Shown: positions 6,327-56,242 of the stretch, piece by piece | Layout: each line of letters begins with the position of its first letter | Position numbering within the stretch: the first letter of the stretch is position 1 | DNA from: Deltaproteobacteria bacterium | Lineage (GTDB): Bacteria; Myxococcota_A; UBA9042; DTJE01 | Direction of reading: 5' to 3' | DNA: 64,000 nucleotides | Assembly: GCA_029547805.1 (NCBI GenBank) | Contig: JAKPOP010000020.1 | Coordinates: 9,797 to 73,796, forward strand | The notes under the pieces: model-generated | What the model was told of the DNA's origin: nothing | Database searches by the model: none | The model's input: the letters and a program-made list of their open reading frames with translations, nothing else | Position numbers and translations under genes: made by a program

Positions 6327-6335
6327 CCTGTCGGA

Positions 6336-6614
6336 TCAGCCGAACCGATAGTGCTTGCGCACCGGTGCCAGGACCTTCCAGGTGCACTGGAGCCCCCGGG
6401 CAAAGGTCACCAGGTCCCCTTTCCCGAAACGGGCCCGCTCGGTGCCATCGGCCGCGACGACCTCCACGTCGCCGTCCAGAAACCAGCAGGTCTCCTCCTC
6501 GTCGTAGAACCACTCGAACTCGCTGACCTCCTTGGTCCAGATCGGCCATCCGCGGACCCCCAGCCGGTCCAGCAGTTCCGGTCCGGGGTCATGGATCACC
6601 TGGATGCGGCTCAT
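6336..6614 (-). CDS. Small cupin-fold protein (cupin_3/DUF861-like), about 92 aa. The start is at the internal MSRIQV.
   Basis: The motif is EVSEFEWFYDEEETCWFLDGDVEV...GDLVTFARGLQCTWKV. The Shine-Dalgarno GGGAGGG lies directly upstream of the internal ATG. The longer N-terminal extension would overlap the TPR gene's start region. Confidence 0.6.
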   Translation of the reverse strand: MSRIQVIHDPGPELLDRLGVRGWPIWTKEVSEFEWFYDEEETCWFLDGDVEVVAADGTERARFGKGDLVTFARGLQCTWKVLAPVRKHYRFG

Positions 6615-6794
6615 GGTCCCTCCCTCCTGAAGAACAGAAGGATTCTTCCATGCGGACCGACGGCTGAAAAGGCCCCGGGAGGACGCTGGCAGGATGCCCC
6701 CGACGTCGAGGGGCTTCCTGGTTCCGGGGACCTCCGCGAGGTGGACGATCGCCATGGCCCTGCTACACTTGGACAGCCCGGGCGGAGGGATGGG

Positions 6795-11404: not shown

Positions 11405-11407
11405 CGA

Positions 11408-31950: not shown

Positions 31951-32199
31951 CCCCGCGCCCTGAAGGCCGGTCCCTCCCGGGATGGCCGACCCGTCAAGAT
32001 GCCGCCCGTGTTGCCATCCGGAGGCTTCTGCTATCCTCCTGCCACCAGGGAGGACGATTGCGCGATGGCGTGTCTGGCAAACCGGCAGGGTCGACGGCCC
32101 GTCTCGCCACCCGGAAAGAGGCCAGGCGTCGTTGCCGTGAAGGCATCGTTGCCGGCCCGCAGGAACGGAGCCCGTGCCCTCTGTCCGGCCAGGACTGCC

Positions 32200-34164
32200 A
32201 TGTTTCGTGGGGCGGTCTGCGGGATTCTGATCGGGCTGCTGGCCTGCGCCACCCCCGATCCCGGGGTCCCGGTGACGGTGCTCCGGGGAACCGCCTACCA
32301 GCGGGGCGTCGAACACGGCCGGGTCCATGGCGACCGCATCCGGTCGTTCTACACCTTGCTGCTCACCAACTCCCTGATGCCCTACCTGAACCGGGAGCGC
32401 CCGGACGTCGCCTCGGTGCTCACGCGCTACCTGTCGCGGGAAGAGGGACGGGAGGACACGCCCTTCCAGCAGTGGCGCGACCGGTGCCTGGCCGACTGCA
32501 CCTACAATTGCTCCGAGACCTGCGGCTTCTCCTATCTGCTCATGAAGGAGAGCGCCGCCCGCCTGAAGGCCTTCATCCCGCAGGAGGCCCTCGACGAGAT
32601 GCAGGGGATCGCCGATGGCGCGGGACTGCCGTTCGAGAAGGTGCTGATCCTGAACACCTTCTTCGATACCCTGCTGTCCTTCCGGGCGATCACGGCCTAC
32701 ATCCGCCAGTCCCAGGCCCCGATGCTGGTCCGCGTGGAGGTCCCGGCGGCGGCAGGTGACGGGCGGGACAATGACGAGGACGGCCAGACCGACGAGGAGG
32801 GGGAAGGTCTGCTGGCCCCCTTCGAGCCCTTTCCCCACGCCACCTGGGTCGAGGTGCCGGGGGACGGTCCCGTCCGCCTGCGCCTCCATGACATCAAGCT
32901 GAGCATTGGCGTGGACAAGGGCGACGAACCGGGGGTGGACCCGGCCACCGTGCAGATCCGCTACAACGGGGTGATCTACCGTTCCCCTGAGGACCGGCCC
33001 TTCCTGCAGACCTTCCCGGTGGAGGGGGACCGGGAATCCCTGGACGTGGTCTTCGCTCCGCCCGGGGGCTTTCCCCCGGCGTCGATCCAGGTCCTGGAGG
33101 TCCAGGCCGGGGACTTCAATCGGATCGTCCGGCCGCCGCCCGTCCATGCCCGGTTCATGCGAGAAGAGCGCATCGCATTCACCACCGCTGGCGCCGGGCT
33201 GGCCCGGGCCGCAGTGCCGAATCGGGCACCGCCTGAGGTTCCGGTCATCCCCCCGTCGATCGCCTTCGCCGCCAGGGGCCGGGCGACCTCCGACGGCAGG
33301 ACGCTGCTGGCCCAGCACTTCGCCCTGCTGGACTCCAATGCCTCCCACCGCCACGCCACGGTCTTCGTTCACCTCCCCGAGGAGGGCATCCCGTATGCGA
33401 TCCTCGGATACCCGGGACTCGTCTGGGGACTCGCGGGACTCAACGCCGAGGGCCTCGCCTGGACCTTCACCCTCTCGGACTCGCTCAACAACCCGATGGT
33501 GGAGGCCTTCCTGAAGGACCTCTTCGAGGCGCGCCTCCTGGAGGAGGGCGTCCCCATCGGCATCCTGGGGAGGCAGGTCCTCTCCCGGCGGGGGAACACC
33601 GCAGGGGCCCTGGAGGACCTCGTGCGGGTGAAGGCCTCCTTTGGATGGAACGTGCTCGTGGCGGACCGGGACGGGGACCTGGCCGCCGTGGAGATGGACA
33701 CCAATCTCCAGGGACGCCCGGAGGGCGGTGCCTTCGTGATCCGCCCGCCGGAATCCGACGCTGCTGCCGCGTCGGATACCGGAAGCCAGGGCCCCAGCGT
33801 GGGTCCCGACGACCTGCGAATCGCCAGCCACTTCCAGCGGAACCGGGACGACCTGACCACCCGCGTGCTCGTCTTCGACATCCGCCCCCAGCGGACGTGG
33901 AGCACCTTCTGGTATCGCTCGATCCAGGCCCATGGGATCCTGGGGGAGCAGATCGCCGCCCGCTACGGGCGCATCGATCGGGACGAGGCCGTCGCGATCC
34001 TCCGGCAACCCGCGCTGGTGGACCCGCGGGACTCGATGATCGCCTCGGTGATGGAACCGGCCCAGGCGCGGATCTGGTACGCGATGGGGCAGGTACCCGC
34101 CACGGACGGGGAGTTCTTCCTGCTGGACCTCCGGGACTTCCTCCCGGAAAGGGGTTCCCCATGA
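32200..34164 (+). CDS. Lipoprotein with an N-terminal peptidase-C45/acyl-CoA:6-APA acyltransferase-like (Ntn-hydrolase) domain and a long C-terminal extension.
   Basis: The lipobox is LLAC. The N-terminal region GTAYQRGVEHGRVHGDRIRSFY resembles the C45-family N-terminus. The start is the in-frame Met before the signal peptide. The long upstream ORF extension is rejected. Confidence 0.5.
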   Translation: MFRGAVCGILIGLLACATPDPGVPVTVLRGTAYQRGVEHGRVHGDRIRSFYTLLLTNSLMPYLNRERPDVASVLTRYLSREEGREDTPFQQWRDRCLADCTYNCSETCGFSYLLMKESAARLKAFIPQEALDEMQGIADGAGLPFEKVLILNTFFDTLLSFRAITAYIRQSQAPMLVRVEVPAAAGDGRDNDEDGQTDEEGEGLLAPFEPFPHATWVEVPGDGPVRLRLHDIKLSIGVDKGDEPGVDPATVQIRYNGVIYRSPEDRPFLQTFPVEGDRESLDVVFAPPGGFPPASIQVLEVQAGDFNRIVRPPPVHARFMREERIAFTTAGAGLARAAVPNRAPPEVPVIPPSIAFAARGRATSDGRTLLAQHFALLDSNASHRHATVFVHLPEEGIPYAILGYPGLVWGLAGLNAEGLAWTFTLSDSLNNPMVEAFLKDLFEARLLEEGVPIGILGRQVLSRRGNTAGALEDLVRVKASFGWNVLVADRDGDLAAVEMDTNLQGRPEGGAFVIRPPESDAAAASDTGSQGPSVGPDDLRIASHFQRNRDDLTTRVLVFDIRPQRTWSTFWYRSIQAHGILGEQIAARYGRIDRDEAVAILRQPALVDPRDSMIASVMEPAQARIWYAMGQVPATDGEFFLLDLRDFLPERGSP

Positions 34165-35417
34165 GGAGGTTCCAGGAATCGGGCGCCAGGGACTGGCGTG
34201 CCACCCCCTTCCTGCCCGGAGTCCTCTGTGCCTGCCTCTGCCTGGCGGCCCCGGGGACCCGGGCCGGGGGTCTCACGGACACCCTGCCCCGAAACGCCTT
34301 CCTGCTGGACCTGTCGTATCACTTCGCCTGGCTCGGTGGTGCCTGGGATGACAAGGGTCGGTACGGCTCCCTGCTCCCCCCCCTCGATCGCTACGAGCCC
34401 GGCGGCAGCCTCCAGGGAACCCTGACTCCAGACGCCAGGGTTCGCTACCACATCACCCTGTTCCAGTTGCAGTTCGGCCTTGCCGAGGCCCTCTCCCTGG
34501 GCATCGGAATCCCGCTCGTGCTCCGGACCGACATCACCCCGGACCTCCGGTGGACCCCCGGGGACGTTCAACCCTTCCTGGGCCGGGCCTACACCGAGGA
34601 CGACTTCTGGCAATGGGCCGCCAGCATGGGACAGCCTCGGCCCGGGTCCTGGACCGGGAATCGCAATGTCCTGGGAGACGTGGTGCTGGGCCTCCGGCTC
34701 CGGTTCACCGATTTCCTCCGCAGGGCCCGGGACCTCGGGATCCAGGGCGCCGTGACGATCCAGGGCGCCCTGCCCACGGGCCGTCAGGCGGACCCCGAGG
34801 AGGTCGTCGCCGCCGGGACCACGATGTGGGACCTCCAGGCCCAGGGGGACCTGGGGGTCCATCTGGCGATGGAGAAGACCTTTGGAGGGGTCCTGGAGGG
34901 ACGGCTGACCCTGGGTCTGGACCTGTTCTACGAGGCCTTTCTTCCCCACCGGTACGCCTCGGCCTTCGGGCGCCGGAATCCCCTGCTCTTGAACTACGGA
35001 CCCTATGTCGGGAAGGCCTACTGGATCGACGGGGGAGACCTCGCCGGGGCTGCCCTCCAGGTGGAGGGGGTGATCTGGAAGGGACCGGCTCGGGCCTCCT
35101 TCGTGAGCGGGGGCAGCCTGGACCGGGCCCGATCCCTCCCGCCTCTCTGGACCGCCTCGGTTCGGCTGGCCAGCGCCTGGATCGGCCAGACCGACTTCAC
35201 CTCGCGATCGTCCGTCTGGGACGCGATGCAGGAGGAGAAATGGAGACCCGGCTACCGCAATGTACTGGTCGTGTCCACGGTCCTCAGCCTGCTGCGCCTG
35301 GGAGCCCCGTTGCAGGTCACCGCGGCCTGGCGTTCCACGAGCCTGATTCCCGGGAAGAACACCCGGGCCTCGGACAGCCTGTCGGTGGGCATCCGGATTC
35401 CGGGGACCTTCTGGTAA
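34161..35417 (+). CDS. Predicted outer-membrane beta-barrel protein with a signal peptide and a C-terminal aromatic residue (...GTFW).
   Basis: ATGA overlap with the upstream stop. The N-terminal signal is MRRFQESGARDWRATPFLPGVLCACLCLAAPGTRAGG. The sequence has alternating hydrophobic beta-strand patterns and ends in Phe-Trp, typical of OMPs. Confidence 0.5.
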   Translation: MRRFQESGARDWRATPFLPGVLCACLCLAAPGTRAGGLTDTLPRNAFLLDLSYHFAWLGGAWDDKGRYGSLLPPLDRYEPGGSLQGTLTPDARVRYHITLFQLQFGLAEALSLGIGIPLVLRTDITPDLRWTPGDVQPFLGRAYTEDDFWQWAASMGQPRPGSWTGNRNVLGDVVLGLRLRFTDFLRRARDLGIQGAVTIQGALPTGRQADPEEVVAAGTTMWDLQAQGDLGVHLAMEKTFGGVLEGRLTLGLDLFYEAFLPHRYASAFGRRNPLLLNYGPYVGKAYWIDGGDLAGAALQVEGVIWKGPARASFVSGGSLDRARSLPPLWTASVRLASAWIGQTDFTSRSSVWDAMQEEKWRPGYRNVLVVSTVLSLLRLGAPLQVTAAWRSTSLIPGKNTRASDSLSVGIRIPGTFW

Positions 35418-37993
35418 TGTCCCCACGGGCCCGACGAGGCAGATGGACCGGGCTGTCCCTGGTGCTTCTCTGCCTCCTGGGACAGGACGGGTGCGCCACC
35501 TCCCGTTACCTCACCTACCGGACCCGTCCCGACTACCCCCGGGCCGGGGACGACTCCCTGGCCATTCCGGGCCTCCGGGAGACGGTCCAGGCCTTCCTGG
35601 ACCCCTCGGGCATCCCCCACATCCAGGCGAAGAACGAGGAGGACCTGGCCCGGGCCACGGGCTTCTTCCAGGGCCGCTACCGCTTCTTCGCGATGGACAT
35701 GCTGCGGCGCCTGGCCCGGGGTCGGGTCTCGGAACTGGTCGGGGAGCAGTCCCTCTTCGAAGGGACGACGGTGGAGTTCGACCGGGCCATGCGGGGCTGG
35801 GGCATCGACCGGGACGTGGCCCGGGACGTCCAGGAACTCTCCCCAGAGATGCGGATGCTGCTCACGGCCTTCACCGAGGGGGTCAACGAGGCCCTCCGGC
35901 GGTATCGGCCCATGGAGTACCGGGTCCTGGGGGTCGTGCCCGATCCCTGGACCCTGGAGGACTGCTTCGCCATCGGCCGCCTCAACGCGTGGTCCGTCAC
36001 CCACAACTGGCAGCAGGAGATCTCCCGACTGCTGCTGGCCTGGCACGTGGGCCTGGACCGGAGCGAGGCGATCTACGGCAACGCCCCCTGGGCCGGCGGG
36101 ACCACCCTCCCCCCCTCGTCGCCTCCCCGGGAACTCCCCCCGGCCGTGGCGGCGGAACTCCGGGACCTGTTCCCTGCCCGTCCTCCCAGGGTCGCCCCGC
36201 CACGAAGCGAGGAGGCGCCCCTCCTGGACCCGGGCGGGCTCACGGGCGCCAGCAACTCCTGGGTGGTGGCCGCGGACCTGTCGGCATCGGGTCGTCCGAT
36301 CCAGGCCAACGACCCCCACCTGACCCACATGCTCCCATCCCTCATGTTCCAACAGCACCTCTCGGCACCGGGGATCGACGTCATCGGGGCAGGCATCGCC
36401 GGTCTTCCCTTCGTACTGGCGGGACACAACGGCCACGTCGCCTGGGGCACCACCTCCCTGGTGGGGGACGTGGTGGACCTCTTCCTGGAGCGCATCGACC
36501 CGGCCCACCCGGACCACGTGATCCGGGACGGCGTCCCCGTCCCCCTGGAGGTCCGGGAGGAAGTCGTGCGGGTGCGCCGCGGCAAGGCCCTGGAGGATCG
36601 CCGCTTCCGGATCCGGGTGGGCCCCCACGGCCCCCTGCTCAACGACCTCTATCCACACCTGTTCGACCCGGAGATGCCCCTGGTGGCCCTCCAGTGGGAT
36701 CCCCCGGGCATCGCCGACAGCCTGGAGGCGGTCCGGAAGGCGGCCCGGGCGACCACCGTCGGCGAGTTGCGGGAGGCCCTGCTGGGCATGATGTCCCCGG
36801 CCTCGGCATGGACCGCCGCCGACGACTCGGGGACCATCGCCTTCTTCGTCACCGGGGCCATCCCGGTCCGTCCCCGTCACCTGGGGACCTTTCCGGCCCC
36901 GGGGTGGGACTCGTCCTATGACTGGGCGGGGATCGTGAACCCCGCGACCCTGCCCCATGCCGAGTCCCGGCAGGGCTTTTTCGCCCACGCCAACAATCTG
37001 GTGGCGGACCCGCGCCAGAGCCCGGTGTTCCTCCACGTGGACACGGCCCCTTCGTATCGATACGACCGGATCGCCGAGTTGATCCGCTCCACGGGACCCC
37101 ACACCCTCCAGAGCCTCGCGGACATCCAGATGGACGTCCGCCTGAACCGGGGCAAGCGCCTGCTGCCTTTCCTGATCCAGGACCTCTCCCGCCGGGAGGT
37201 CCGCTGGTCCCCCCTGGAACGCAGGGCCCTGGACCTGCTCCGGTCCTGGGACTTCGAGGCGGGGACCGGATCGGTGGGCACCACCCTCTTCTTCTCCCTC
37301 TATCGGGAGGCCGTGATCCTGGCCATCCAGGACGAGTTGCCGCCCGAGGCCTATCGCTTCTTCCTCTCCCAGCGGTACTCGACCAACGTGGCGGACCTCT
37401 GGTTCGAGCGTCCCGACCATCCGGTGTGGGACGATCGGCGCACGCCCCGGGTCGAGATGCGTCGGGAGGTGATCCAGGAGGCCTTCCGAAGGACCATCCG
37501 GCGTCTCCAGCGAGAACTGGGGCCCAATCCCGAGGAGTGGCGTTGGGGCAAGGTCCACACCCTCCAGATCCGCCATGCCTTCGGGGGCCAGAAGGCCATC
37601 TCTCGGTTCATGAACCTGCGCCCCTCTCCGGTGGGCGGAGCCCTGGACTCGGTCTGGAAGTCCCACTTCGACCTGGGCAACGAAGACCACCCCTTCGCGG
37701 TGGTCGCCGGGCCCTCCTATCGGCAGATCGTGGACCTGGCGGACCTGGACCACGGCCTGTGGGTGAGCGACACGGGCATCTCGGGCTGGCCCGGCTCCCC
37801 CCAGTACGGGGACCAGCACGAGGCCTGGAAGCGCGGCGAGTTCCTCCCGATGATCTTCCGGTGGGACGAGGTGCAATCCCTGGCCCGGGCGACGATCCGC
37901 CTGCGGCCCCTGGAACCGGACGAGGAGCCGGAATCCGAGACGTCGCCCGAGGACGAGGGACCAGCCCCGGTTGACCAGGAGGAGACCCGATGA
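35417..37993 (+). CDS. Penicillin-amidase/AHL-acylase family (peptidase S45, Ntn-hydrolase) lipoprotein.
   Basis: TAATG overlap with the upstream gene. The lipobox is LLGQDGC. The conserved autoprocessing and nucleophile region is GASNSWVVAADLSASGRPIQANDPHL. The protein is 858 aa with codon bias throughout. Confidence 0.75.
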   Translation: MSPRARRGRWTGLSLVLLCLLGQDGCATSRYLTYRTRPDYPRAGDDSLAIPGLRETVQAFLDPSGIPHIQAKNEEDLARATGFFQGRYRFFAMDMLRRLARGRVSELVGEQSLFEGTTVEFDRAMRGWGIDRDVARDVQELSPEMRMLLTAFTEGVNEALRRYRPMEYRVLGVVPDPWTLEDCFAIGRLNAWSVTHNWQQEISRLLLAWHVGLDRSEAIYGNAPWAGGTTLPPSSPPRELPPAVAAELRDLFPARPPRVAPPRSEEAPLLDPGGLTGASNSWVVAADLSASGRPIQANDPHLTHMLPSLMFQQHLSAPGIDVIGAGIAGLPFVLAGHNGHVAWGTTSLVGDVVDLFLERIDPAHPDHVIRDGVPVPLEVREEVVRVRRGKALEDRRFRIRVGPHGPLLNDLYPHLFDPEMPLVALQWDPPGIADSLEAVRKAARATTVGELREALLGMMSPASAWTAADDSGTIAFFVTGAIPVRPRHLGTFPAPGWDSSYDWAGIVNPATLPHAESRQGFFAHANNLVADPRQSPVFLHVDTAPSYRYDRIAELIRSTGPHTLQSLADIQMDVRLNRGKRLLPFLIQDLSRREVRWSPLERRALDLLRSWDFEAGTGSVGTTLFFSLYREAVILAIQDELPPEAYRFFLSQRYSTNVADLWFERPDHPVWDDRRTPRVEMRREVIQEAFRRTIRRLQRELGPNPEEWRWGKVHTLQIRHAFGGQKAISRFMNLRPSPVGGALDSVWKSHFDLGNEDHPFAVVAGPSYRQIVDLADLDHGLWVSDTGISGWPGSPQYGDQHEAWKRGEFLPMIFRWDEVQSLARATIRLRPLEPDEEPESETSPEDEGPAPVDQEETR

Positions 37994-38580
37994 CCTCTCG
38001 TCTCCTCTGGCTGGTTCCCTGGGTCCTCGTGGCCGGCTGCTCCCTGACCCCCGGGGAATTCCCGGTGGAATCCGGGGAGATCACCTCGACCGGGGGCGCC
38101 GACGGCCTTCCCTCGGCCCCCGTGCGGGAACTCCCGGAACCGGATGGCGCCCCGGGGGGAGCCCAGGTCGGATCGGCCTGCGGAACCGGCGAGGAGTGCA
38201 AGACCGGCTTCTGCATGACCACCGAGAACATCGGGGGCTTCATCGCCGGCGCCTCGGTTCCCGGGGGCTACTGCTCGGGCCTCTTCTGCGCCGTGGACGG
38301 GTCCGACGATGCCTGCACCCCGGAGATGGGCGGCGTCTGCTTCAGCCTGTTCCCGTTCCTCGGGGAGTCCTTCGCCGAACAGGGAATCTGCCTGGCGCCC
38401 TGCCGGACCGACGACGACTGCCGCCCCTCCGACGACCAGGTGTGCTTCGACGCCAAGGAACTGGAGCAGGCCGGGCGATTGACCTCAGACCAGATGGCCC
38501 TCTACTACGGGGATCATCCGAGGGCCTGCCTCCCCAGGACCGTCCGGAATGCGGCGATGGCCCCGCCCGGGAGCCGCTAG
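37990..38580 (+). CDS. Small Cys-rich secreted lipoprotein with about 14 Cys.
   Basis: ATGA overlap with the acylase gene. The lipobox is LVAGC. Cys pairs are spaced regularly, consistent with a disulfide-rich fold. Confidence 0.5.
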   Translation: MTSRLLWLVPWVLVAGCSLTPGEFPVESGEITSTGGADGLPSAPVRELPEPDGAPGGAQVGSACGTGEECKTGFCMTTENIGGFIAGASVPGGYCSGLFCAVDGSDDACTPEMGGVCFSLFPFLGESFAEQGICLAPCRTDDDCRPSDDQVCFDAKELEQAGRLTSDQMALYYGDHPRACLPRTVRNAAMAPPGSR

Positions 38581-38616: not shown

Positions 38617-39471
38617 CTACGGCATCCAGGCCGGATCGAACCGTCCCTGGAAGACGCGGACCGCCGGTCCCTGGAGGAAGACCTCCGAAAGGTCCTCGGC
38701 GACGGTCAGCGTCAGCGTCCCCCCTGGAAGGTCCATCTGCAGCGGCTCCCCGGGCCGGGCCCGTCCGGTTCCCACGGCCGCCACCGCAGTGGCGCCAGCC
38801 CCGGTCCCACAGGCCAGCGTGACGCCGCATCCCCGCTCCCGGACGACGACCCGGAAGTGCCCGGGGCCCAGGGGCTCCACGAATTCCACGTTGGTCTTCC
38901 GGGGAAAGGCCGGATGTTCCGACAGCACGGCCCCGAAGGCCTCGGCCTCGGATACCGTCATCCCCTGGAAGATCACGAGGTGGGGATTTCCCATGCCGAC
39001 CCCGTGGCCCTCGAAGGTGCGCCCCAGGGCCTCGACCGTCACGACGCGACCCGTCGTGGCCATCGGGATCGCGTCCGGGTCGAGGGTCGGACGCCCCAGG
39101 CCGACGCGCACGGTCCGGACCTGGCCTTGATCATCCAGGAAGACCCGGCAGGGCTTCACGCCGGCCAGCGTCTCGATGGCGATCTCGTCCCCGGTGACGC
39201 CCAGGCAGTCGTGGAGATGCCGCGCGACGCAACGAATCCCGTTGCCGCACATCTCGGCCTCGGACCCGTCGGCGTTGATCACCCGCATGAACCACGGCGC
39301 CCGGGTCCCCCGCTCCACCAGCAGCACCCCGTCGGCACCGACCCCGAAGTGGCGGTCGCAGATCCGGGCGGCCGTTTCGGGAGTCAGCCACGGCGGACGG
39401 CCATCCAGGGCCTCCAGGACCACGAAGTCGTTCCCCGTCCCGTGGTATTTCCAGAACGTCGTCCCCTCCAT
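38617..39471 (-). CDS. dapF: Diaminopimelate epimerase.
   Basis: The Shine-Dalgarno GGGAGGAAGG lies 2 nt upstream of ATG. Conserved DapF motifs are present: GTGNDFVV at the N-terminus, plus the catalytic Cys regions MCGNGIRC and LACGTGAGA. Confidence 0.85.
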   Translation of the reverse strand: MEGTTFWKYHGTGNDFVVLEALDGRPPWLTPETAARICDRHFGVGADGVLLVERGTRAPWFMRVINADGSEAEMCGNGIRCVARHLHDCLGVTGDEIAIETLAGVKPCRVFLDDQGQVRTVRVGLGRPTLDPDAIPMATTGRVVTVEALGRTFEGHGVGMGNPHLVIFQGMTVSEAEAFGAVLSEHPAFPRKTNVEFVEPLGPGHFRVVVRERGCGVTLACGTGAGATAVAAVGTGRARPGEPLQMDLPGGTLTLTVAEDLSEVFLQGPAVRVFQGRFDPAWMP

Positions 39472-39579
39472 CGCCTTCCTCCCGGTCCTTGGCGGCGATG
39501 GTAGGGGCCTTCCGGCGTCTTGGCAATGTGCTCCCCGGGGACTTGCGCTACAATCCCCTCCCGACCCGCTGGAGGCCCC

Positions 39580-40158
39580 ATGGCCCTCTTGGACCCGCAG
39601 GTGCTGGATGGAATCCGAACCCTCCTCGAGGCCCTCGGGGACGACCCGAACCGTCCGGACCTCCAGGCGACCCCCTCCCGGGTGCTCGATTCCCTCCGGT
39701 ACCTGACCCGAGGCCAGCGGGAGTCCCTGGAGGAGGTCCTGGAGGGGGGCCTCTTCGAGGGAGACTACCGGGACCTGGTGCTGGTCCGGGACATCGAGTT
39801 CGCGTCCCTCTGCGAACATCACCTCCTGCCGTTCCTGGGCCATGCCCACGTCGCGTACGTGCCCGACCGCCGCATCCTGGGCCTGTCGAAGATCGCCCGG
39901 ATCGTGGACCACTTCGCGGCCCGGCTCCAGGTCCAGGAGCGCCTGACGACCCAGGTCGCCGAGTGCCTGACAGAGGTCCTCCGGCCCAGGGCCGTGGGGG
40001 TCGTGATCTCGGCCACCCATCTCTGCATGCAGATCCGGGGCGTCCGGAAGGCAGACAGCGAGGTGACCACTTCGGTCTGGCGCCTGGGCCCACAGGGCGG
40101 CCCGGAGGAACTGGAACGCCTCCGCCAGGAACTGGTCGCCAGCGGGACGCGCCGATGA
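39580..40158 (+). CDS. folE: GTP cyclohydrolase I.
   Basis: The Shine-Dalgarno GGAGG lies 5 nt upstream. FolE signature regions are CEHHLLPF and ATHLCMQIRGV. Confidence 0.85.
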   Translation: MALLDPQVLDGIRTLLEALGDDPNRPDLQATPSRVLDSLRYLTRGQRESLEEVLEGGLFEGDYRDLVLVRDIEFASLCEHHLLPFLGHAHVAYVPDRRILGLSKIARIVDHFAARLQVQERLTTQVAECLTEVLRPRAVGVVISATHLCMQIRGVRKADSEVTTSVWRLGPQGGPEELERLRQELVASGTRR

Positions 40159-40772
40159 CCCCACGGCCGATGACGCCCCGTCCTCCGCCCTGGCATCCCC
40201 CCGATCAGACCGGCCCGACGCTGGACCGGGTCCGGGAGGCCCTGGCGGCCCGGCGGGCCCGGGAGTCCCCAAGGACCCCGGACCTTCGCCCCGCGGCGGT
40301 GCTCGTGGCCCTGTGTCCCGGCCCCCATGGACTGGAGGTGCTGCTGACCCGGCGATCCCACGAGGTAGCGGACCACCAGGGCCAGGTCGCCTTTCCCGGC
40401 GGGGCCGTGGACCCCGGAGACCGGGACAGCCTCGCCGCAGCCCTCCGGGAGGCCAGGGAGGAGGTCGGTCTTCCTCCGGACCGCGCCCAGGTGCTGGGCC
40501 GCCTGGACGACTTCCCCACCATCACCGGCTTCCTCGTGACGCCCTGGGTCGTCCAGGTCCCCTCCTTCGAGGGGGTCCTCCCGGCCACGGGGGAGGTGGA
40601 CGCCGTCTTCCCCTTCCCCCTGGTCTGGCTGGCCGACGACCGCCACGTCCTCCGGGTCCCCTGGCGGCCGGGCGGCGTCCCCATGGAGGTCTTGTTCATC
40701 CCATACGGGGAGTTCCTGATCTGGGGGGCCACCGCCCGGATCCTCTGGCAATTCTGGGAGGTCGTTCGATGA
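40155..40772 (+). CDS. Nudix hydrolase of the CoA-pyrophosphatase (NudL-like) subfamily.
   Basis: ATGA overlap with folE. The CoAse Nudix motif is LLTRRSHEVADHQGQVAFPGG, followed by the Nudix box ALREAREEVGL. Confidence 0.75.
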   Translation: MTPRPMTPRPPPWHPPDQTGPTLDRVREALAARRARESPRTPDLRPAAVLVALCPGPHGLEVLLTRRSHEVADHQGQVAFPGGAVDPGDRDSLAAALREAREEVGLPPDRAQVLGRLDDFPTITGFLVTPWVVQVPSFEGVLPATGEVDAVFPFPLVWLADDRHVLRVPWRPGGVPMEVLFIPYGEFLIWGATARILWQFWEVVR

Positions 40773-41806
40773 CGCAGGACCCACGGAAGGAGGCCCTCTT
40801 CGACGGACCGGAGGCCCAGCAACTGGTAGGGGCCCTCAAGGGCGCCCGGACCCTGTTGTTGACCACCCACGAGGGCCCCGACGCCGATGGAATGGGGTCG
40901 GAACTGGCCCTCGCCCGGGCCCTGCGGCGCCTTGGAAAGCGGGTCTTCATCCGGAACGCCGACCCCCCGGCCCGCCGCTTCCAGTTCCTCAACGACGCTG
41001 GCGACCTGGTCGTCTTCCGCAACGAGGACATCCCCCTGGTACAGGAGGTCGACCTCGTCCTGCTGGTGGACACGGCCGAGCTGCGCCGAGCCGGACGGGT
41101 CGGGGAGGCGATCCGACGGCGCCAGGGAGCGACCCTGGCCCTGGACCACCACGCCGCCGGTTCCGAGACCCTGCCGGGACTCCTGGGCCCCGACTTCAGC
41201 AGCACCGGAGAGATGGTCGCGGGCCTGATGCCCACCCTGGGCCTGCCCCTGACCCCGGACCTGGCGACTCCCCTCTATGCGGCCATCCTGTTCGACACGG
41301 CCCAGTTCCGTTTCTGTCGGAACGACCCCGGGACCTTCCGGGTCGCTGCCGCCCTGGTGGAGGCGGGAGCCGACGCCGAGGCCATCGGCAAGCGCCTCTT
41401 CGGAAGCGCCCGGCGGGATGCCCGGGTGCTGGAGGCCCGCATCTTGAATGATGCCCATTTCGAGTGTGACGGGAGACTGGCCTGGGCCGCCGTCGAACCT
41501 CGCCACCTCCAGGGCCTGCAGGTGGACCGGGACGAGATCCGGTCCCTGGTGAACCTGATCGGGGACATCGAGGGCGTGGAGGTGGCCTGCCTGTTCAAGT
41601 CCGGAGAGTCCACCTTGAAGGTGAGCCTCCGCTCCCGGGGACGACATCCGGTGCTGCCGGTTGCCGAGGCCCTGGGAGGAGGCGGGCACCCCTTCGCCGC
41701 GGGGGCCGACGTCCCCTGGGACCTGGCCACGGCCATCGACCGGACCCTGCCTTCGCTGCGGACCATGCTGGAAGATGCCGGGGAGGCCCCTACTCCTCGC
41801 CCGTGA
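40769..41806 (+). CDS. DHH-family phosphoesterase (NrnA-like bifunctional oligoribonuclease/pAp phosphatase-type) with a DHHA1 domain.
   Basis: ATGA overlap with the Nudix gene. The DHH motifs are LLLTTHEGPDADGMGS and LDHH. The C-terminal DHHA1 signature is GGGGHPFAAG. Confidence 0.7.
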   Translation: MTQDPRKEALFDGPEAQQLVGALKGARTLLLTTHEGPDADGMGSELALARALRRLGKRVFIRNADPPARRFQFLNDAGDLVVFRNEDIPLVQEVDLVLLVDTAELRRAGRVGEAIRRRQGATLALDHHAAGSETLPGLLGPDFSSTGEMVAGLMPTLGLPLTPDLATPLYAAILFDTAQFRFCRNDPGTFRVAAALVEAGADAEAIGKRLFGSARRDARVLEARILNDAHFECDGRLAWAAVEPRHLQGLQVDRDEIRSLVNLIGDIEGVEVACLFKSGESTLKVSLRSRGRHPVLPVAEALGGGGHPFAAGADVPWDLATAIDRTLPSLRTMLEDAGEAPTPRP

Positions 41807-42287
41807 TGTCCTCGTCGGGGCGGTACTTGTCGGGCTTGATCGTGAGCACCATGCAGTGGGCCCGTCGGACGACCTTCTCGGTCTGACTGCCCAGCAGCAT
41901 GTGCTTCACGCCGGTGTATCCGTGACTGCCCAGCACGATCAGGTCGATCTTCTCCTGCCAGGCCATCCGGGCGATCTCCAGGTAGGGCTTGCCGGCCCGG
42001 ACCTCGATCCGCACCTTCCGGCGGTCCACCTCCGCCAGTCCGCCCTCCTCGAACAACTCGTTGACCCGGCGCCGGACCCCCGTCTGGATCCGCTCCATCT
42101 CCAGGGCCTGACGCTCGATGTCCTCGCCCTTGTCGAAGGAGGCGATGGGCTCGACCACATGGAGCACCGTCACGTCCGCCGCGTACTGCCGCGCCAGTTT
42201 CAAGCCGATGTAGAAGGCCTTCCGCGAGGTATCCGAAAAATCCACCGGGATCAGGATCTTGTCGATCTTCAAGGTCACTTCCATCAC
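41790..42287 (-). CDS. Universal stress protein (UspA family).
   Basis: The Shine-Dalgarno is GGGGAGG. The UspA pattern is KILIPVDFSDTS...VTVLHVVE...IDLIVLGSHGYTGVKHMLLGSQTEKVVRRAHCMVLTIK. Confidence 0.75.
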   Translation of the reverse strand: MMEVTLKIDKILIPVDFSDTSRKAFYIGLKLARQYAADVTVLHVVEPIASFDKGEDIERQALEMERIQTGVRRRVNELFEEGGLAEVDRRKVRIEVRAGKPYLEIARMAWQEKIDLIVLGSHGYTGVKHMLLGSQTEKVVRRAHCMVLTIKPDKYRPDEDITGEE

Positions 42288-42317: not shown

Positions 42318-43877
42318 TCAGAGGGGGATGTTACCATGCTTCTTCGGGGGATTGGAGTCCCGTTTCTCCCCCAGGGTCTCCAGGGCCAGGGCCAGGCGGC
42401 GCCGGGTCTCCCGAGGGGCGATCACCGCGTCCACGAATCCCCACTCGGCGGCCTGATAGGGATTCGCAAACCGCTCCCGGTAGGCCTCGGTCAGGGCCAT
42501 CCGGGTTCCCTCGGGGTCCTGCGCTGACTGGAGGCTCTTCCGGTGCAGGACCTCGATGGCCGCGTCGGGGCCCATCACCGCGATCTCCGCCGAGGGCCAG
42601 GCCAGGTTCAGGTCCCCCCGCATGTGGCGGGAGGACATCACGATGTAGGCGCCGCCGTAGGCCTTCCGCAGGATCACGGTCAGTTTCGGGACCGTGGCCT
42701 CGGCATAGGCATAGATCAACTTCGCCCCGTGGCGAATGAGACCGCCGGCCTCCTGGTCCACCCCGGGCAGGAAGCCCGGCGTATCCACCAGGGTCAGCAG
42801 GGGGATGTGGAAGGCGTCGCAGAACCGCACGAACCGGGCTCCCTTCACGCTGGCATCGACGTCCAGGCACCCGGCCAGGTGGTCCGGCTGGTTCGCGACC
42901 ACGCCGATGGTCCGCCCACCCAGGCGGGCAAAGGCGGTGACCAGATTCCGGGCATGGAGGGGCAGCACCTCCAGATAGCGCGCATCGTCCACCACCCGGG
43001 CGATCACCTCCCGGACGTCGTAGGGCCGCTGGGACTCGGTGGGGACCACGTCATCCAGCACCGGGTCAACCCGGTCCGGAGGGTCCTCGCTGGCGACCCG
43101 TGGCGGGTCCGACTGGTTGTTCTGGGGCAGGTAGGAGAGGAGTTCCCGGATCAACTCCAGGGCCCCCTCCTCGTCGGGGGCGGCGAAGTGCGCCACGCCG
43201 CTGCGACACGCATGCATCGCCGCGCCTCCGAGGGCCTCCTTGGTCACCTCCTCGTGGGTGACCGTCCGGATCACGTCGGGGCCGGTGATGAACATGTGAC
43301 TGCCCCGCTCGGTCATCACGACGAAGTCCGTGATCCCCGGCGAATAGACCGCGCCGCCAGCACAGGGGCCCAGGATGGCCGAGATCTGGGGGATCACGCC
43401 CGAGGCCAGCGTGTTCCGGAGGAAGATCTCGGCGTAGCCCGAAAGGGCCACGACCCCCTCCTGGATCCGCGCCCCCCCGGAGTCGTTGAGGGCGATCAGA
43501 GGGCAGCCGACCTTCAGGGCCATGTCCTGCACCTTGCAGATCTTTCGGGCGTGGGCCACCCCGAGGGACCCTCCAAGCACCGTGAAATCCTGCGAGTAGA
43601 CGCAGACCGGCCTTCCGTCGATGCGCCCGAAGCCTGTCACGACCCCGTCTCCCAGGAAGTCCTGGGACTCCATGCCGAAGTCGGTGCAATGGTGACGCAC
43701 GAAGGCGTCCATCTCCACGAAGGACCCGGGGTCCAGCAGCAGTCCCAGGCGCTCCCGGGCCGTCAGGTGCCCCTCGGCCTGCCGTCGCTGCTGCCGCTCG
43801 GGGCCTCCGCCGGCCTGGGCCTGTCGCTCCATCTCGGCCAGGCGGTCCAGTTGCCGCTGTCGGTCCGATCGGCTCAT
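42318..43877 (-). CDS. pccB: Acyl-CoA carboxylase carboxyltransferase subunit (propionyl-CoA carboxylase beta chain/methylmalonyl-CoA carboxyltransferase family).
   Basis: The carboxyltransferase N and C domains are present. Motifs are SGGARIQEG and GPCAGGAVYSPGITDF. The Shine-Dalgarno is GAGGAGAGAAGGA before ATG (MSRSDRQRQ). The longer upstream extension is rejected. Confidence 0.8.
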   Translation of the reverse strand: MSRSDRQRQLDRLAEMERQAQAGGGPERQQRRQAEGHLTARERLGLLLDPGSFVEMDAFVRHHCTDFGMESQDFLGDGVVTGFGRIDGRPVCVYSQDFTVLGGSLGVAHARKICKVQDMALKVGCPLIALNDSGGARIQEGVVALSGYAEIFLRNTLASGVIPQISAILGPCAGGAVYSPGITDFVVMTERGSHMFITGPDVIRTVTHEEVTKEALGGAAMHACRSGVAHFAAPDEEGALELIRELLSYLPQNNQSDPPRVASEDPPDRVDPVLDDVVPTESQRPYDVREVIARVVDDARYLEVLPLHARNLVTAFARLGGRTIGVVANQPDHLAGCLDVDASVKGARFVRFCDAFHIPLLTLVDTPGFLPGVDQEAGGLIRHGAKLIYAYAEATVPKLTVILRKAYGGAYIVMSSRHMRGDLNLAWPSAEIAVMGPDAAIEVLHRKSLQSAQDPEGTRMALTEAYRERFANPYQAAEWGFVDAVIAPRETRRRLALALETLGEKRDSNPPKKHGNIPL

Positions 43878-49136: not shown

Positions 49137-51809
49137 TCAGGACTTCAGCAGGGCCAGGGCCCCCACGAGCCGTTCCCGGGTCTCCTGGAACTGGGCCTCC
49201 TTTTCCCGCTCGGCCTCGACGACCTCCTCCCGGGCCCGGGCCAGGAAGTCCGGGTTGCCCAGTTTCCGCCGCACCGCCTCCAGATCCCGGTCCACCCTGG
49301 CCAGTTCCTTCTCCTGGCGGGCGATCTCGGCCTGCAGCCGATCCCGTCCCACCTGGACATAGCAGTCCGCCGTGTCCCCGACCTTCACGGCCGTCCCCTC
49401 GGGCCGTGCCACCTCCCGGGAGATGACCAGCGGACCGGTGCCAGCCAGCCGCTCGATGTCGCCCCGGTGGGCCTGGAGGTGGGCCTCGATGCGCTCCGAG
49501 AAGGGCCGGATCACCACCTCCGGACGTTCCGAGGGACTCAGGCGCACCTCCGATCGGACCGCCCGGATGTCCCCGATGACCCCGATCACCTCGTCCATCT
49601 CCCCGGCCACCTCCGGGTCCCGGGGCAGGTCATCCCCCCGGGGATAGGCGGCGATCATCACGCTGTCCGGCGCGCCCCGGAGCCAGGGTCTCAGGCGCTG
49701 CCACAACTCCTCGGTGACGTAGGGCATGAAGGGGTGCAGGGCCCGGAGGATCCGCTCCAGGGAGGCCACCAGCACCGCCTGGGCCGCCCGCCGGCGATCC
49801 CCACCCTCGGCCAGGGCCCCCTTGGCCAGTTCCAGGTACCAGTCGCAGAAGCGGTGCCAGGTGAACTGGTAGAGGCCCGAGGCGGCCTCGTTGAACCGGA
49901 ATCCCTCCAGGGCGTCCCGGGCGCCCTCCAGGGCCTCGGCCAGTCGCGTGAGCACCCAGGTGTCGGCGGCGGTCCGATCCACCTCCCGGGGGTCCGGGAG
50001 CGGTGTCGGGGCATCCTCGAGGTTCATCAGCACGAAACGAGAGGCGTTCCAGACCTTGTTGACGAACTCCCGGTAGCCCCGGAGGCGGTCCATCGACAGC
50101 TTGATGTCCCGCCCCTGGGCGGTCATCTGCGCCAGCGTGAACCGCAGGGCGTCGGCGCCGACCTCCTCGACGACCTCCAGGGGGTCGATCACGTTGCCCT
50201 TGGTCTTGGACATCTTGAGACCCTTCTCGTCCCGGACCATCGCGTGGAGATAGACCACCCGGAAGGGCACGTCCCCCATGAAGTGCAGTCCCATCATCAT
50301 CATCCGGGCCACCCAGAAGAAGATGATGTCGAAGCCCGTCTCCATCACGCTGGTGGGGTAGAAGGTCTTCAAGGCCGGAGTCTGATCGGGCCAGCCGAGC
50401 GTGCTGAATGGCCACAGGGCCGACGAGAACCAGGTGTCCAGCACGTCCTCGTCCTGCCGCAGCGAGGTGCCCCCGCAGGCGGGGCAGCGGGTGTCGGGAC
50501 CCGGGTCCTCGGTGTCCACCACCATCCCGTCGCAGCCCGGGCGGGTGCAGTACCAGACCGGGATCTGGTGCCCCCACCAGAGCTGGCGGCTGATGCACCA
50601 GTCCCGGATGTTCTCCATCCAGTTCATGTAGGTCTTCTCCCAGTGGGCCGGGATGAAGACCGTCCGCCGGTCCCGGACCGCCCGGATGGCCTCCTCCGCC
50701 AGGGGCTTCGTCCGGACGTACCACTGGAGGCTCACGGTCGGTTCCACCACGACGCCGGACCGCTGGCAGTGACCGACCCGGTGGGTGTAGTCCTCGACCT
50801 TCACCAGCAGGCCCTGGGCCTCGAGGTCCTCCACCACCCGCTTCCGGGCCTCCTCGCGGCTCAGGCCCCGATACCGTTCCGGCACCGCGTCGTTCATCCG
50901 GGCATGGGCGTCCAGGACCTGGATCATCGGCAGGCCGTGGCGACGGCCCGTCTCGAAATCGGCGAAGTCGTGGGCCGGGGTGATCTTGAGGGCCCCGGTG
51001 CCGAAGGAGAGGTCCACGGCCTCGGCATCGCCGATGACCGGGATCAGCCGGTCCGCCAGGGGCAGCCGGACCTTCCGACCGATCCAGGCGGCGTGGCGGG
51101 GGTCCTCGGGATGCACGGCGACCGCCGTGTCCCCGAAGAGGGTCTCGGGACGGGTGGTCGCCACCACGAGCCGGTCGCTGCCGTCCTCCAGTGGATAGGC
51201 GATGTACCAGAGGTGCCCCCGGACCTCCCTCTCCTCGACCTCCAGGTCCGACAGCACGGTCTGGATCCCCGGCGACCAGTTCACCATCCGCTGGTCCCGG
51301 TAGATCAGGCCCTCCCGGTAGAGTTGCACGAAGACGTGGCGCACGGCCCGGGAGAGCCCCTCGTCCAGCGTGAAGCGTTCCCGGTCCCAGTCCACCGACA
51401 CGCCCAGCGCGCACATCTGCTCGGTGATCCGGGCATGGGCCGCCTCCTTCCAGCGCCAGACCTCCTCCAGGAAGGCCTCCCGACCCAGGTCATGGCGGGA
51501 GACTCCCCGTCTCTGCAGTTCCCGCTCGACCACCATCTGGGTGGCGATGCCGGCGTGGTCCGTGCCGGGCAGCCACAGGGCGTTGAACCCCTCCATGCGC
51601 TTCCATCGCGTCAGGATGTCCTGGATCGTGAAGGTCAGGGCATGACCCATGTGGAGATGGCCCGTCACGTTGGGCGGCGGGATGACGATGCAGAAGGGTT
51701 CCCGGTCGCTCTGGTCCTGGGCGCGGAAATACCCGGCCTCCCGCCACCGCGGGTACCAGCCGGCCTCGACCTCCCGGTGGGAGTAGCCTTTCGACAACGG
51801 GTCCATCAT
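49137..51809 (-). CDS. valS: Valine--tRNA ligase.
   Basis: The HIGH motif is [13 protein letters not shown] and the KMSKS motif is KMSKTKGNV. An editing domain is present, with a C-terminal coiled coil. ATGA overlap with ftsY. Confidence 0.9.
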
Positions 51810-56124: not shown

Positions 56125-56242
56125 GTCCCGTCCTCCCGGTCCCGCCTGCCTCGCCAGGATGGTCTCTGCCCCTCGGGACACCTGTCGGTCATCGGAGACG
56201 CGAACTCCCCGACGCGCGTCACGAGCGACCCGACGTGAGATT

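What the first reader, a model, noticed from the sequence alone, without database searches (positions are those of the whole stretch)
39580..41806. folE, CoAse-type Nudix, DHH phosphoesterase operon with two ATGA overlaps, a possible complete GTP to dihydroneopterin route
GTP cyclohydrolase I is start-stop coupled to a Nudix hydrolase carrying the CoA-pyrophosphatase signature (LLTRRSxxxxxHxGQVAFPGG). That Nudix is in turn coupled to a DHH/DHHA1 phosphoesterase. In the folate pathway FolE's product, 7,8-dihydroneopterin triphosphate, is first stripped of pyrophosphate by a Nudix enzyme (NudB in E. coli). The monophosphate is then removed by a phosphatase that is still unassigned in most bacteria. 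This operon would supply both steps using non-canonical family members. The Nudix is of the NudL-type rather than NudB-type, and a DHH phosphoesterase serves as the missing monophosphatase.
Basis: inference. Interest (0 to 1): 0.55.

Follow-up and report, generated by a model that had tools for sequence, protein, structure and literature searches.

The report
Conserved folE, Nudix, DHH gene trio
Three tightly packed genes (GTP cyclohydrolase I, a CoA-pyrophosphatase-type Nudix hydrolase and an NrnA-like DHH phosphoesterase) form a module that is kept, and sometimes fused, across an uncultured Myxococcota-related lineage; it may supply the two unassigned dephosphorylation steps after FolE in folate synthesis, but a CoA-to-AMP clean-up role fits the two enzyme families about as well.

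Summary
folE (39580-40158), a NudL/CoA-pyrophosphatase-type Nudix (40155 or 40170-40772) and a DHH/DHHA1 phosphoesterase (40769-41806) lie head to tail on the + strand. ATGA overlaps are common in this window, even between unrelated genes, and the first one depends on the start codon chosen.

The module is real. Of 13 related lineages examined (GC 50-71%, flanks often unrelated), 8 have folE-Nudix-DHH, 2 have folE-DHH, 1 has folE next to a Nudix::DHH fusion, and 2 have the fusion without folE. All these DHH domains form one clade (100% bootstrap), separate from ordinary NrnA. The Nudix tree agrees. At least 7 diverged fusion clusters exist. None of 159 other NudL or DHH loci shows the link.

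CoA pyrophosphatases release 3',5'-ADP (pAp), a reported NrnA substrate, and both proteins keep their family signatures.

Gene context favours dephosphorylation of FolE's product (about 0.4). Family chemistry favours CoA to pAp to AMP (about 0.3). An independent pabB-nudL pairing in Gammaproteobacteria adds a second NudL-folate link. Nothing is proven; enzyme assays would decide.

The parts
39451..39579 (.). Divergent intergenic region between dapF (- strand) and folE (+ strand), with a GGAGG Shine-Dalgarno at 39571-39575.
   Evidence: Sequence read. One sigma-70-like site on the - strand at 39526-39498. No Rfam riboswitch, including THF or preQ1 classes, at E<=5.
39580..40158 (+). folE, GTP cyclohydrolase I (192 aa).
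   Evidence: Pfam PF01227 E=2.1e-62. TIGR00063 scores 192.7 against a cut-off of 181.6. Matches T. thermophilus FolE 1wm9 at 3.8e-52, with the CEHHLLPF and HLCM..RG motifs aligned.
40155..40772 (+). NudL/CoA-pyrophosphatase-type Nudix hydrolase. It is 205 aa from ATG 40155, or 200 aa from ATG 40170.
   Evidence: PF00293 E=5.7e-16. NF007980 CoA pyrophosphatase scores 116.9 bits against a cut-off of 134. Matches D. radiodurans CoA pyrophosphatase 1nqy at 2.3e-22, AtNUDT11 at 2.1e-17 and NUDT7 at 3.2e-14. Start-codon ambiguity.
40341..40403 (+). CoA-type (UPF0035) motif LLTRRSHEVADHQGQVAFPGG.
   Evidence: It fits LLTxR[SA]x3Rx3Gx3FPGG (motif as quoted in bioRxiv 10.1101/2020.01.31.929182) except for Arg->Ala. 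The aligned DR1184 sequence ([21 protein letters not shown]) also lacks that Arg.
40398..40472 (+). Nudix box, GGAVDPGDRDSLAAALREAREEVGL.
   Evidence: R98, E99, E102 and E103 are invariant in a 24-sequence alignment.
40769..41806 (+). NrnA-like DHH/DHHA1 phosphoesterase (345 aa). It belongs to a distinct clade that is always linked to folE, to a NudL-type Nudix, or to both.
   Evidence: PF01368 E=3.1e-11 and PF02272 E=3.6e-11. NrnA model NF053633 scores only 63.3 against a cut-off of 350. Matches Rv2837c/CnpB 5jju at 2.2e-28. Clade supported at 100% bootstrap. Catalytic and phosphate-binding residues H34, D38, D40, D101, D126, H127, H128, D176, S286, R288 and GGGGH303-307 are kept. GGGGH lies at 41675-41689.
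41790..42287 (-). Universal stress protein gene, convergent with the DHH gene and overlapping its 3' end by 17 nt. It is a frequent but not constant neighbour.
   Evidence: PF00582 E=6.3e-31. Usp is downstream in L003-L005, L086, L088, L089 and L090. It is absent in L001, L171, L172, L174 and L177.
38617..39450 (-). dapF (diaminopimelate epimerase), the divergent upstream neighbour. Context only.
   Evidence: TIGR00652 scores 243.6 against a cut-off of 114.65.

Best explanation
The three genes form one operon, and its products act in sequence on FolE's product.

1. FolE converts GTP to 7,8-dihydroneopterin triphosphate. This is established family chemistry.
2. The NudL-type Nudix removes pyrophosphate to give the monophosphate. 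This is inferred.
3. The dedicated DHH/DHHA1 paralogue removes the last phosphate to give dihydroneopterin for folate or another pterin. This is inferred.

Shown here:
- The Nudix and DHH proteins are one functional unit. They are adjacent, repeatedly fused, and have congruent trees.
- That unit has stayed attached to folE since before its main branches split.

Not shown: either substrate.
For: **Conservation of the trio.** folE-Nudix-DHH occurs with overlaps or gaps of at most 16 nt in 8 lineages. Nudix identity runs from 46% to 94%, locus GC from 50% to 71%, and flanks differ: L001-L005, L086-L088, L091 and L172.

**Architectural variants that keep pairwise links.**
- folE-DHH without the Nudix: L171, L174, L175.
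- folE abutting a Nudix::DHH fusion, with unrelated flanks (FadE, LiaF-like, PgsB/C): L177, L178.
- Fusion without folE: L089, L090.

folE is adjacent in 11 of the 13 lineages examined.

**Phylogeny.** All these DHH domains form one clade (100% bootstrap), separate from ordinary NrnA-likes. The nearest outgroup sits in the classical rbfA-DHH-truB operon. folE linkage occurs in both major sub-clades, so it is most simply ancestral. The Nudix tree is congruent.

**Fusions.** At least 7 diverged full-length fusion clusters exist among 1.84 billion representatives.

**Independent NudL-folate link.** pabB is immediately upstream of nudL in E. coli, Proteus, Alteromonas and Marinomonas.

**Pathway gap.** The DHNTP pyrophosphatase is missing from most genomes, and the monophosphatase is still called 'non-specific' (PMC1971073, PMC4161248). 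A pyrophosphohydrolase plus a phosphoesterase are exactly the two enzyme types needed after FolE. A Nudix in a fol cluster has a precedent in L. lactis FolQ (PMC1971073).
Against: **Nudix.** It keeps the CoA-type motif and all family-invariant residues. Its best structural and HMM matches are CoA pyrophosphatases. No NudB model appears among its NCBIfam hits.

**DHH.** It keeps every NrnA-type catalytic and phosphate-binding residue. Only one position (E104) is clade-specific, so there is no sequence sign of a new substrate. No DHH/DHHA1 enzyme is known to me that acts on a pterin phosphate.

**Context.**
- No folB, folK, folP, queD, queC or queE among 30 neighbouring genes scanned.
- No THF riboswitch.
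- Two fusion lineages lack folE.
- The association is absent from 80 other NudL loci and 79 other DHH loci, so it has a single evolutionary origin.

**Not checked.** I could not check whether these genomes already have a nudB/folQ gene, or a folate pathway at all.
Confidence: 0.4

Rival explanations
1. CoA turnover with pAp clean-up. The Nudix is an ordinary CoA (or acyl-, oxidised or dephospho-CoA) pyrophosphatase. It yields 4'-phosphopantetheine plus 3',5'-ADP (pAp). The DHH/DHHA1 partner is a dedicated pAp 3'-phosphatase that gives AMP. folE is only co-transcribed.
For: - Both proteins keep their family signatures.
- The products of NudL-type enzymes are 4'-phosphopantetheine and 3',5'-ADP (bioRxiv 10.1101/2020.01.31.929182).
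- NrnA-type proteins have been reported as pAp phosphatases and complement cysQ (cited in PMC9757072).
- pAp is described as a by-product of CoA metabolism (abstract of PMC8268124).
- Fusion of the two domains fits channelling of a toxic intermediate.
- Two fusion lineages have no folE nearby.
- This reading needs no new activity for either family.
Against: - It leaves unexplained why folE has stayed attached in both major branches while flanks turned over.
- It leaves the independent pabB-nudL pairing unexplained.
- Careful assays found pAp hydrolysis by NrnA, CnpB and Pde2 weak or undetectable next to CysQ (PMC9757072).
- E. coli NudL is a slow CoA hydrolase (bioRxiv 10.1101/2020.01.31.929182).
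- None of 80 other NudL loci has a DHH neighbour.
- I found no paper linking CoA pyrophosphatase with NrnA.
Confidence: 0.3
2. RNA 5'-end processing. The Nudix removes dephospho-CoA-type caps from RNA and leaves a 5'-monophosphate. The NrnA-like enzyme, a 5'-3' exonuclease on short 5'-phosphorylated RNAs, then degrades the products.
For: - NudL is listed as a CoA-RNA decapping enzyme (PMC11253889).
- NrnA needs a 5' phosphate and prefers RNAs of 2-4 nt (PMC9757072).
- Ordinary NrnA-likes sit in the rbfA-truB-pnp RNA operon.
- In 24 of 80 NudL loci a PolyA_pol/CCA-type nucleotidyltransferase lies immediately downstream.
Against: - The original NudL study could not detect CoA-RNA decapping (bioRxiv 10.1101/2020.01.31.929182).
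- The folE linkage is unexplained.
- The DHH clade here has left the RNA-operon context.
Confidence: 0.08
3. No shared pathway. Three housekeeping genes with separate roles (folate or queuosine precursor supply, CoA housekeeping, nanoRNA degradation) are kept together only as an expression unit.
For: - ATGA-coupled pairs of unrelated genes occur in the same window: ftsY/valS and glgA/carboxyltransferase.
- Much of the surrounding synteny is also conserved among the closer relatives: ABC1-GT2-amidohydrolase-L3-dapF and Usp-carboxyltransferase-glgA-valS.
- B. subtilis folE (mtrA) shares an operon with the unrelated TRAP gene (my own knowledge).
Against: - Recurrent, long-lived Nudix::DHH fusions are hard to reconcile with unrelated functions.
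- The trio survives complete turnover of both flanks (L172, L177).
Confidence: 0.12

Closest known systems
Lactococcus lactis folKE-folP-folQ(ylgG)-folC cluster, and E. coli NudB (dihydroneopterin triphosphate pyrophosphatases)
   Same: A Nudix gene sits next to folE. The proposed reaction is the same: DHNTP to DHNMP plus PPi. FolQ was itself assigned through gene clustering (PMC1971073).
   Different: The Nudix here is of the CoA-pyrophosphatase (NudL) subfamily, not the small MutT-like FolQ/NudB type. No NudB model is among its NCBIfam hits. No other fol gene is nearby. The known clusters contain no partner phosphatase.
CoA pyrophosphatases: E. coli NudL, D. radiodurans DR1184, NUDT7, AtNUDT11
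   Same: The closest sequence relatives. NF007980 is the best model. Matches 1nqy at 2.3e-22. The UPF0035 motif, the Nudix box and the C-terminal WGATAR are kept.
   Different: The score is below the NCBIfam equivalog cut-off (116.9 against 134). The motif Arg is replaced by Ala. The gene is locked to folE and to a DHH enzyme, or fused to the latter, which none of 80 other NudL loci shows.
NrnA / CnpB (Rv2837c) stand-alone DHH-DHHA1 nanoRNase/pAp phosphatases
   Same: Same two-domain architecture and size. All catalytic motifs and GGGH are kept. Best PDB matches at 2e-28.
   Different: It belongs to a separate clade (100% bootstrap). It scores 63 bits against a cut-off of 350 on the NrnA equivalog model. 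Its gene context is folE/Nudix rather than rbfA-truB.
E. coli pabB-nudL gene pair
   Same: A NudL-type Nudix sits immediately downstream of, and co-oriented with, a folate-synthesis gene. The pairing is conserved in Proteus, Alteromonas and Marinomonas.
   Different: The partner belongs to the pABA branch, not the pterin branch. There is no DHH gene. The function of the pairing is unstudied as far as my searches show.

Membership tests
GTP cyclohydrolase I (FolE, TIGR00063) | Score at or above the curated equivalog cut-off. | tested here: met
   192.7 bits against a cut-off of 181.6. The same holds for the folE next to the fusion in L177, at 192.6.
GTP cyclohydrolase I (FolE, TIGR00063) | Zinc and catalytic motifs: Cys-x-His-His, and His-x-Cys before RG. 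| tested here: met
   CEHHLLPF and HLCMQIRG align with the same motifs of T. thermophilus and other solved FolE proteins.
CoA pyrophosphatase (NudL type, NF007980 / PROSITE UPF0035) | Score at or above the curated equivalog cut-off. | tested here: not met
   116.9 bits against a cut-off of 134. It is nevertheless by far the best model (next best 28.7 bits). E. coli NudL scores 357.9.
CoA pyrophosphatase (NudL type, NF007980 / PROSITE UPF0035) | Motif LLTxR[SA]x3Rx3Gx3FPGG upstream of the Nudix box. | tested here: inconclusive
   LLTRRSHEVADHQGQVAFPGG has all fixed positions except Arg->Ala. The aligned sequence of PDB 1nqy, deposited as a D. radiodurans CoA pyrophosphatase ([21 protein letters not shown]), also lacks that Arg. 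Clade members vary at this position.
CoA pyrophosphatase (NudL type, NF007980 / PROSITE UPF0035) | Nudix box with REx2EE catalytic glutamates. | tested here: met
   R98, E99, E102 and E103 are invariant in a 24-sequence alignment.
CoA pyrophosphatase (NudL type, NF007980 / PROSITE UPF0035) | Hydrolysis of CoA to 4'-phosphopantetheine plus 3',5'-ADP. | not testable with these tools
   Requires an enzyme assay.
Dihydroneopterin triphosphate pyrophosphatase (NudB/FolQ type) | Sequence membership in the NudB/FolQ subfamily. | tested here: not met
   No NudB model is among the 11 NCBIfam hits at E<=0.01. MutT-type models score 29 bits or less.
Dihydroneopterin triphosphate pyrophosphatase (NudB/FolQ type) | Activity on DHNTP. 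| not testable with these tools
   Requires an enzyme assay or complementation of an E. coli nudB mutant.
NrnA (bifunctional oligoribonuclease/pAp phosphatase, NF053633) | Score at or above the curated equivalog cut-off. | tested here: not met
   63.3 bits against a cut-off of 350.
NrnA (bifunctional oligoribonuclease/pAp phosphatase, NF053633) | DHH motifs I-IV plus the DHHA1 GGGH and Arg phosphate site. | tested here: met
   H34, D38, D40, D101, D126, H127, H128, D176, S286, R288 and G303-H307 are conserved both in this clade and in 120 other NrnA-likes.
NrnA (bifunctional oligoribonuclease/pAp phosphatase, NF053633) | Placement within the ordinary NrnA clade and its usual RNA-operon context. 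| tested here: not met
   The protein belongs to a separate clade at 100% bootstrap. The nearest outgroup lies between rbfA and truB, whereas this clade lies next to folE and/or a Nudix.

The most novel reading that the evidence does not exclude
The module is a dedicated GTP-to-dihydroneopterin route.

- NudL-type Nudix enzymes would be a second, unrecognised family of dihydroneopterin-triphosphate pyrophosphatases. This would also explain the conserved pabB-nudL pair and the residual folate synthesis of E. coli nudB mutants.
- This DHH clade would be the first specific dihydroneopterin-monophosphate phosphatase, a step attributed to 'non-specific phosphatases' for decades.
Probability: 0.3. 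Interest if true: 0.8.

Novelty: new variant of a known kind. Interest (0 to 1): 0.58.

Why it matters
The two steps after FolE are among the last loosely assigned reactions of folate synthesis. The pyrophosphatase gene is unknown in most genomes. The monophosphatase has never been assigned to a specific enzyme (PMC1971073, PMC4161248).

A conserved, repeatedly fused Nudix-DHH unit locked to folE is a concrete, cloneable candidate for both steps.

If the unit instead proves to be a CoA-to-AMP device, it would be the first dedicated bacterial coupling of CoA breakdown to pAp removal. It would also speak to the disputed pAp-phosphatase role of NrnA-like proteins (PMC9757072).

Either outcome gives a function to a distinct DHH clade. 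It also bears on the unresolved role of E. coli NudL.

Tried and rejected
**Searches that led nowhere.**
- Riboswitch upstream of folE (THF, THF-II, preQ1): nothing in Rfam at E<=5 or at gathering thresholds.
- Other folate, queuosine or CoA genes in the window: none among 30 ORFs scanned with Pfam.
- Generality of the link: 80 NudL loci from GTDB genomes and 80 DHH loci from metagenomes were screened by tblastn. The only hits were L091, which has the full trio, and one folE 3.5 kb from a NudL in an NC10 genome.
- L092, a DHH at 44% identity without partners, looked like a fifth architecture. Its best match is an outgroup NrnA-like.
- The Mur-ligase-like gene near the folE-fusion locus looked like folC. 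It is PgsB.
- The PanE-like gene upstream of one fusion scores below its cut-off.
- Specificity-determining positions in the DHH clade: only E104 passed, which is uninformative.
- Literature searches for CoA pyrophosphatase with NrnA, Nudix-DHH fusion, folE with DHH, nudL with pabB, and NuCoA found nothing relevant. The DR1184 structure paper is not held.

**Not attempted.** Structure prediction was not run. The tool returns no coordinates, so it could not discriminate substrates.

**Weighting.** Early in the work I favoured the CoA/pAp reading outright. I lowered it after finding folE-DHH loci without the Nudix and a folE-fusion locus with unrelated flanks.
Full report
**1. The observation**

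The + strand of 39580-41806 carries three consecutive ORFs with coding-type GC3.

- The first (39580-40158; GGAGG at 39571-39575) is a full GTP cyclohydrolase I. Pfam PF01227 gives E=2.1e-62. TIGR00063 scores 192.7 against a cut-off of 181.6. The CEHH and HxC motifs align with solved FolE structures.
- The second (40155-40772) is a Nudix hydrolase. Its best NCBIfam model by a wide margin is CoA pyrophosphatase NF007980, at 116.9 bits and just under the 134-bit cut-off. Its best solved relatives are the D. radiodurans CoA pyrophosphatase (2.3e-22), Arabidopsis NUDT11 and human NUDT7.
- The quoted signature is at 40341-40403. It fits LLTxR[SA]x3Rx3Gx3FPGG (motif as quoted in bioRxiv 10.1101/2020.01.31.929182) except for one Arg. 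The aligned DR1184 sequence also lacks that Arg.
- The third (40769-41806) is a stand-alone DHH/DHHA1 protein. It is closest to Rv2837c/CnpB and NrnA structures (2e-28), but scores only 63 bits against a 350-bit cut-off on the NrnA equivalog model.

Both ATGA junctions exist. Two points limit their weight.

- The Nudix has a second in-frame ATG at 40170. Relatives at 80-84% identity start at the equivalent position, so the first overlap may be an 11-nt gap.
- ATGA overlaps are ordinary here. They also join ftsY to valS and glgA to a carboxyltransferase.

No intrinsic terminator-like site lies inside the trio, and no Rfam element precedes folE.

**2. Setting**

The window is 70% GC. A DHH protein 100% identical to this one, and a member of the 90% cluster of the Nudix homologue P0002 (84% identical to the window Nudix), are labelled 'Myxococcota bacterium' by NCBI.

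- Upstream lies dapF, divergently oriented.
- Downstream lie a convergent Usp gene (17-nt overlap), a carboxyltransferase and glgA.
- Thirty further ORFs across the window gave no folB, folK, folP, queC/D/E or CoA-synthesis gene.

**3. Conservation**

Exact-protein look-ups of homologues gave thirteen lineages with four architectures.

| Architecture | Lineages | Loci |
|---|---|---|
| folE-Nudix-DHH | 8 | window, L001-L005, L086-L088, L091, L172 |
| folE-DHH, no Nudix anywhere in the locus | 2 | L171, L174, L175 |
| folE abutting a Nudix::DHH::DHHA1 fusion | 1 | L177, L178 |
| Fusion without folE | 2 | L089, L090 |

- In the first group the junctions are tight. Nudix identity runs from 46% to 94%.
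- In the third group the flanks are FadE, LiaF-like and PgsB/C genes. The folE there scores 192.6 bits on TIGR00063.
- Locus GC ranges from 50% to 71%.
- Flanks are shared among the closer relatives but are completely different in L172 and L177.

Outside this group the link disappears.

- None of 80 NudL-type loci from GTDB genomes has a DHH gene within about 6 kb or an adjacent folE. One NC10 locus has folE 3.5 kb away.
- Of 80 DHH loci from metagenomes, only L091 has partners.

**4. Phylogeny and fusions**

- In a neighbour-joining tree, all folE- or Nudix-associated DHH domains form one clade with 100% bootstrap support. The clade is separate from other NrnA-likes.
- The nearest outgroup lies in the classical rbfA-DHH-truB-rpsO-pnp operon.
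- Inside the clade, a fused group (97%) holds both the folE-linked fusion P0393 and the folE-less fusions.
- An unfused group (100%) has a further fusion, P0252, as its sister (92%).
- folE linkage is therefore present on both sides of the deepest split and is most simply ancestral.
- The Nudix tree recovers the same main groups, although deep nodes and the monophyly of the fused group are weakly supported there.
- An exhaustive phmmer search of 1.84 billion cluster representatives found seven full-length fusion clusters at 38-73% identity. All carry the NudL-type motif.

The Nudix and DHH parts are thus a long-standing functional unit. This is the most secure conclusion of the work.

**5. What the unit does**

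Two readings compete.

*Family chemistry.* NudL-type enzymes split CoA into 4'-phosphopantetheine and 3',5'-ADP (bioRxiv 10.1101/2020.01.31.929182). NrnA-type proteins have been reported to dephosphorylate exactly that nucleotide (reviewed in PMC9757072).

- It needs no new activity.
- Both proteins keep every family-wide residue, and only E104 is specific to the DHH clade.
- Weaknesses: careful assays find pAp hydrolysis by NrnA, CnpB and Pde2 poor (PMC9757072). E. coli NudL is a slow CoA hydrolase. The persistent attachment of folE is unexplained.

*Gene context.* FolE's product is a triphosphate ester. The next two pathway steps need a pyrophosphohydrolase and a phosphoesterase.

- The first enzyme is unknown in most genomes, and the second has never been specifically assigned (PMC1971073, PMC4161248).
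- All four architectures are what one expects of three genes of one pathway.
- There is a second, independent link between a NudL-type Nudix and a folate gene. pabB lies immediately upstream of nudL in E. coli (3-nt gap), Proteus, Alteromonas and Marinomonas.

I weigh context slightly above family precedent.

| Reading | Weight |
|---|---|
| Folate/pterin route (DHNTP to dihydroneopterin) | about 0.4 |
| CoA to pAp to AMP | about 0.3 |
| RNA decapping plus nanoRNase | 0.08 |
| No shared pathway | 0.12 |
| Something not yet thought of | remainder |

These weights are judgement, not computation.

**6. Comparison with known systems**

By function, the closest analogue is the L. lactis folKE-folP-folQ-folC cluster, where a Nudix next to folE is the DHNTP pyrophosphatase. 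That Nudix belongs to a different subfamily, and no phosphatase partner is known.

By sequence, the proteins are a NudL-type Nudix and an NrnA-like DHH enzyme. Both fall below the curated equivalog cut-offs, and the DHH belongs to its own clade.

I found no paper describing a Nudix-DHH fusion, a folE-DHH link or a functional pabB-nudL link. The library lacks most subscription journals, so absence there is weak evidence.

**7. Verdict**

- The module is real, old and specific.
- Its assignment to the GTP-to-dihydroneopterin route is the best three-gene explanation but is unproven.
- A family-consistent rival remains close behind.

The question is now directly testable with two or three recombinant proteins and two E. 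coli mutants.

Noticed in passing
L176 (E. coli K-12 NC_000913.3 1894805-1896748); L075, L044, L056, L053: pabB lies immediately upstream of, and co-oriented with, nudL in E. coli (3-nt gap), Proteus, Alteromonas and Marinomonas. This is a second, independent neighbourhood link between a NudL-type Nudix and folate synthesis. No paper in the library discusses it.
   Followed up: partly
L006-L085 (for example L058 6477-7745, L039 4929-5921, L021 2181-2732): In 24 of 80 NudL loci, mostly alphaproteobacterial, a PolyA_pol/CCA-type nucleotidyltransferase lies directly downstream on the same strand. Hsp33 lies upstream in 19 loci, and a second, divergent Nudix in another 19. The NCBIfam A-adding tRNA nucleotidyltransferase model also has a DHH-like N-terminus, which the window DHH hits weakly.
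   Followed up: partly
L057 (NC10 bacterium) 5689-10587: A NudL-type Nudix lies 1.2-3.5 kb upstream of a glycosyltransferase, two PTPS genes and folE. The cluster resembles a pterin-glycoside cluster.
   Followed up: partly
window 51806-51809 (-), 43874-43877 (-), 37990-37993 (+), 34161-34164 (+): ATGA start-stop overlaps join ftsY to valS and glgA to a carboxyltransferase, which are functionally unrelated pairs. They also link the AAT-like, penicillin-amidase and 196-aa ORFs. The carboxyltransferase probably starts at 43877 (519 aa, as in relatives), not at 44006.
   Followed up: yes
window 31999-38580 (+): An AAT-like gene, a penicillin-amidase-like gene and a Cys-rich 196-aa ORF lie between the L3-like gene and dapF. 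They are absent from that position in relatives such as L001, L171 and L174, and partly present in L005.
   Followed up: no
window 31291-31950 (+): A 219-aa protein matches only part of the ribosomal L3 model (profile positions 210-288). It stands alone, away from any ribosomal operon, and is conserved at this position in relatives (L001, L171, L174).
   Followed up: no
window 10463-14621 (-) and 54742-56181 (-): A methyltransferase and two radical-SAM genes, one a 765-aa protein with two radical-SAM stretches, lie in a row. A separate B12-binding radical-SAM gene lies further on. Their function was not examined.
   Followed up: no
window 8431-10476 (+): A type II/IV secretion ATPase (T2SSE) carries N-terminal cyclic-nucleotide-binding and MshEN domains.
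   Followed up: no
window 40155-40184: An imperfect 15-nt tandem duplication (ATGACCCCACGGCCG / ATGACGCCCCGTCCT) gives MTPRP-MTPRP at the Nudix N-terminus. It is shared with the 94%-identical P0001 but not with relatives at 80-84% identity. It creates the first ATGA overlap.
   Followed up: partly
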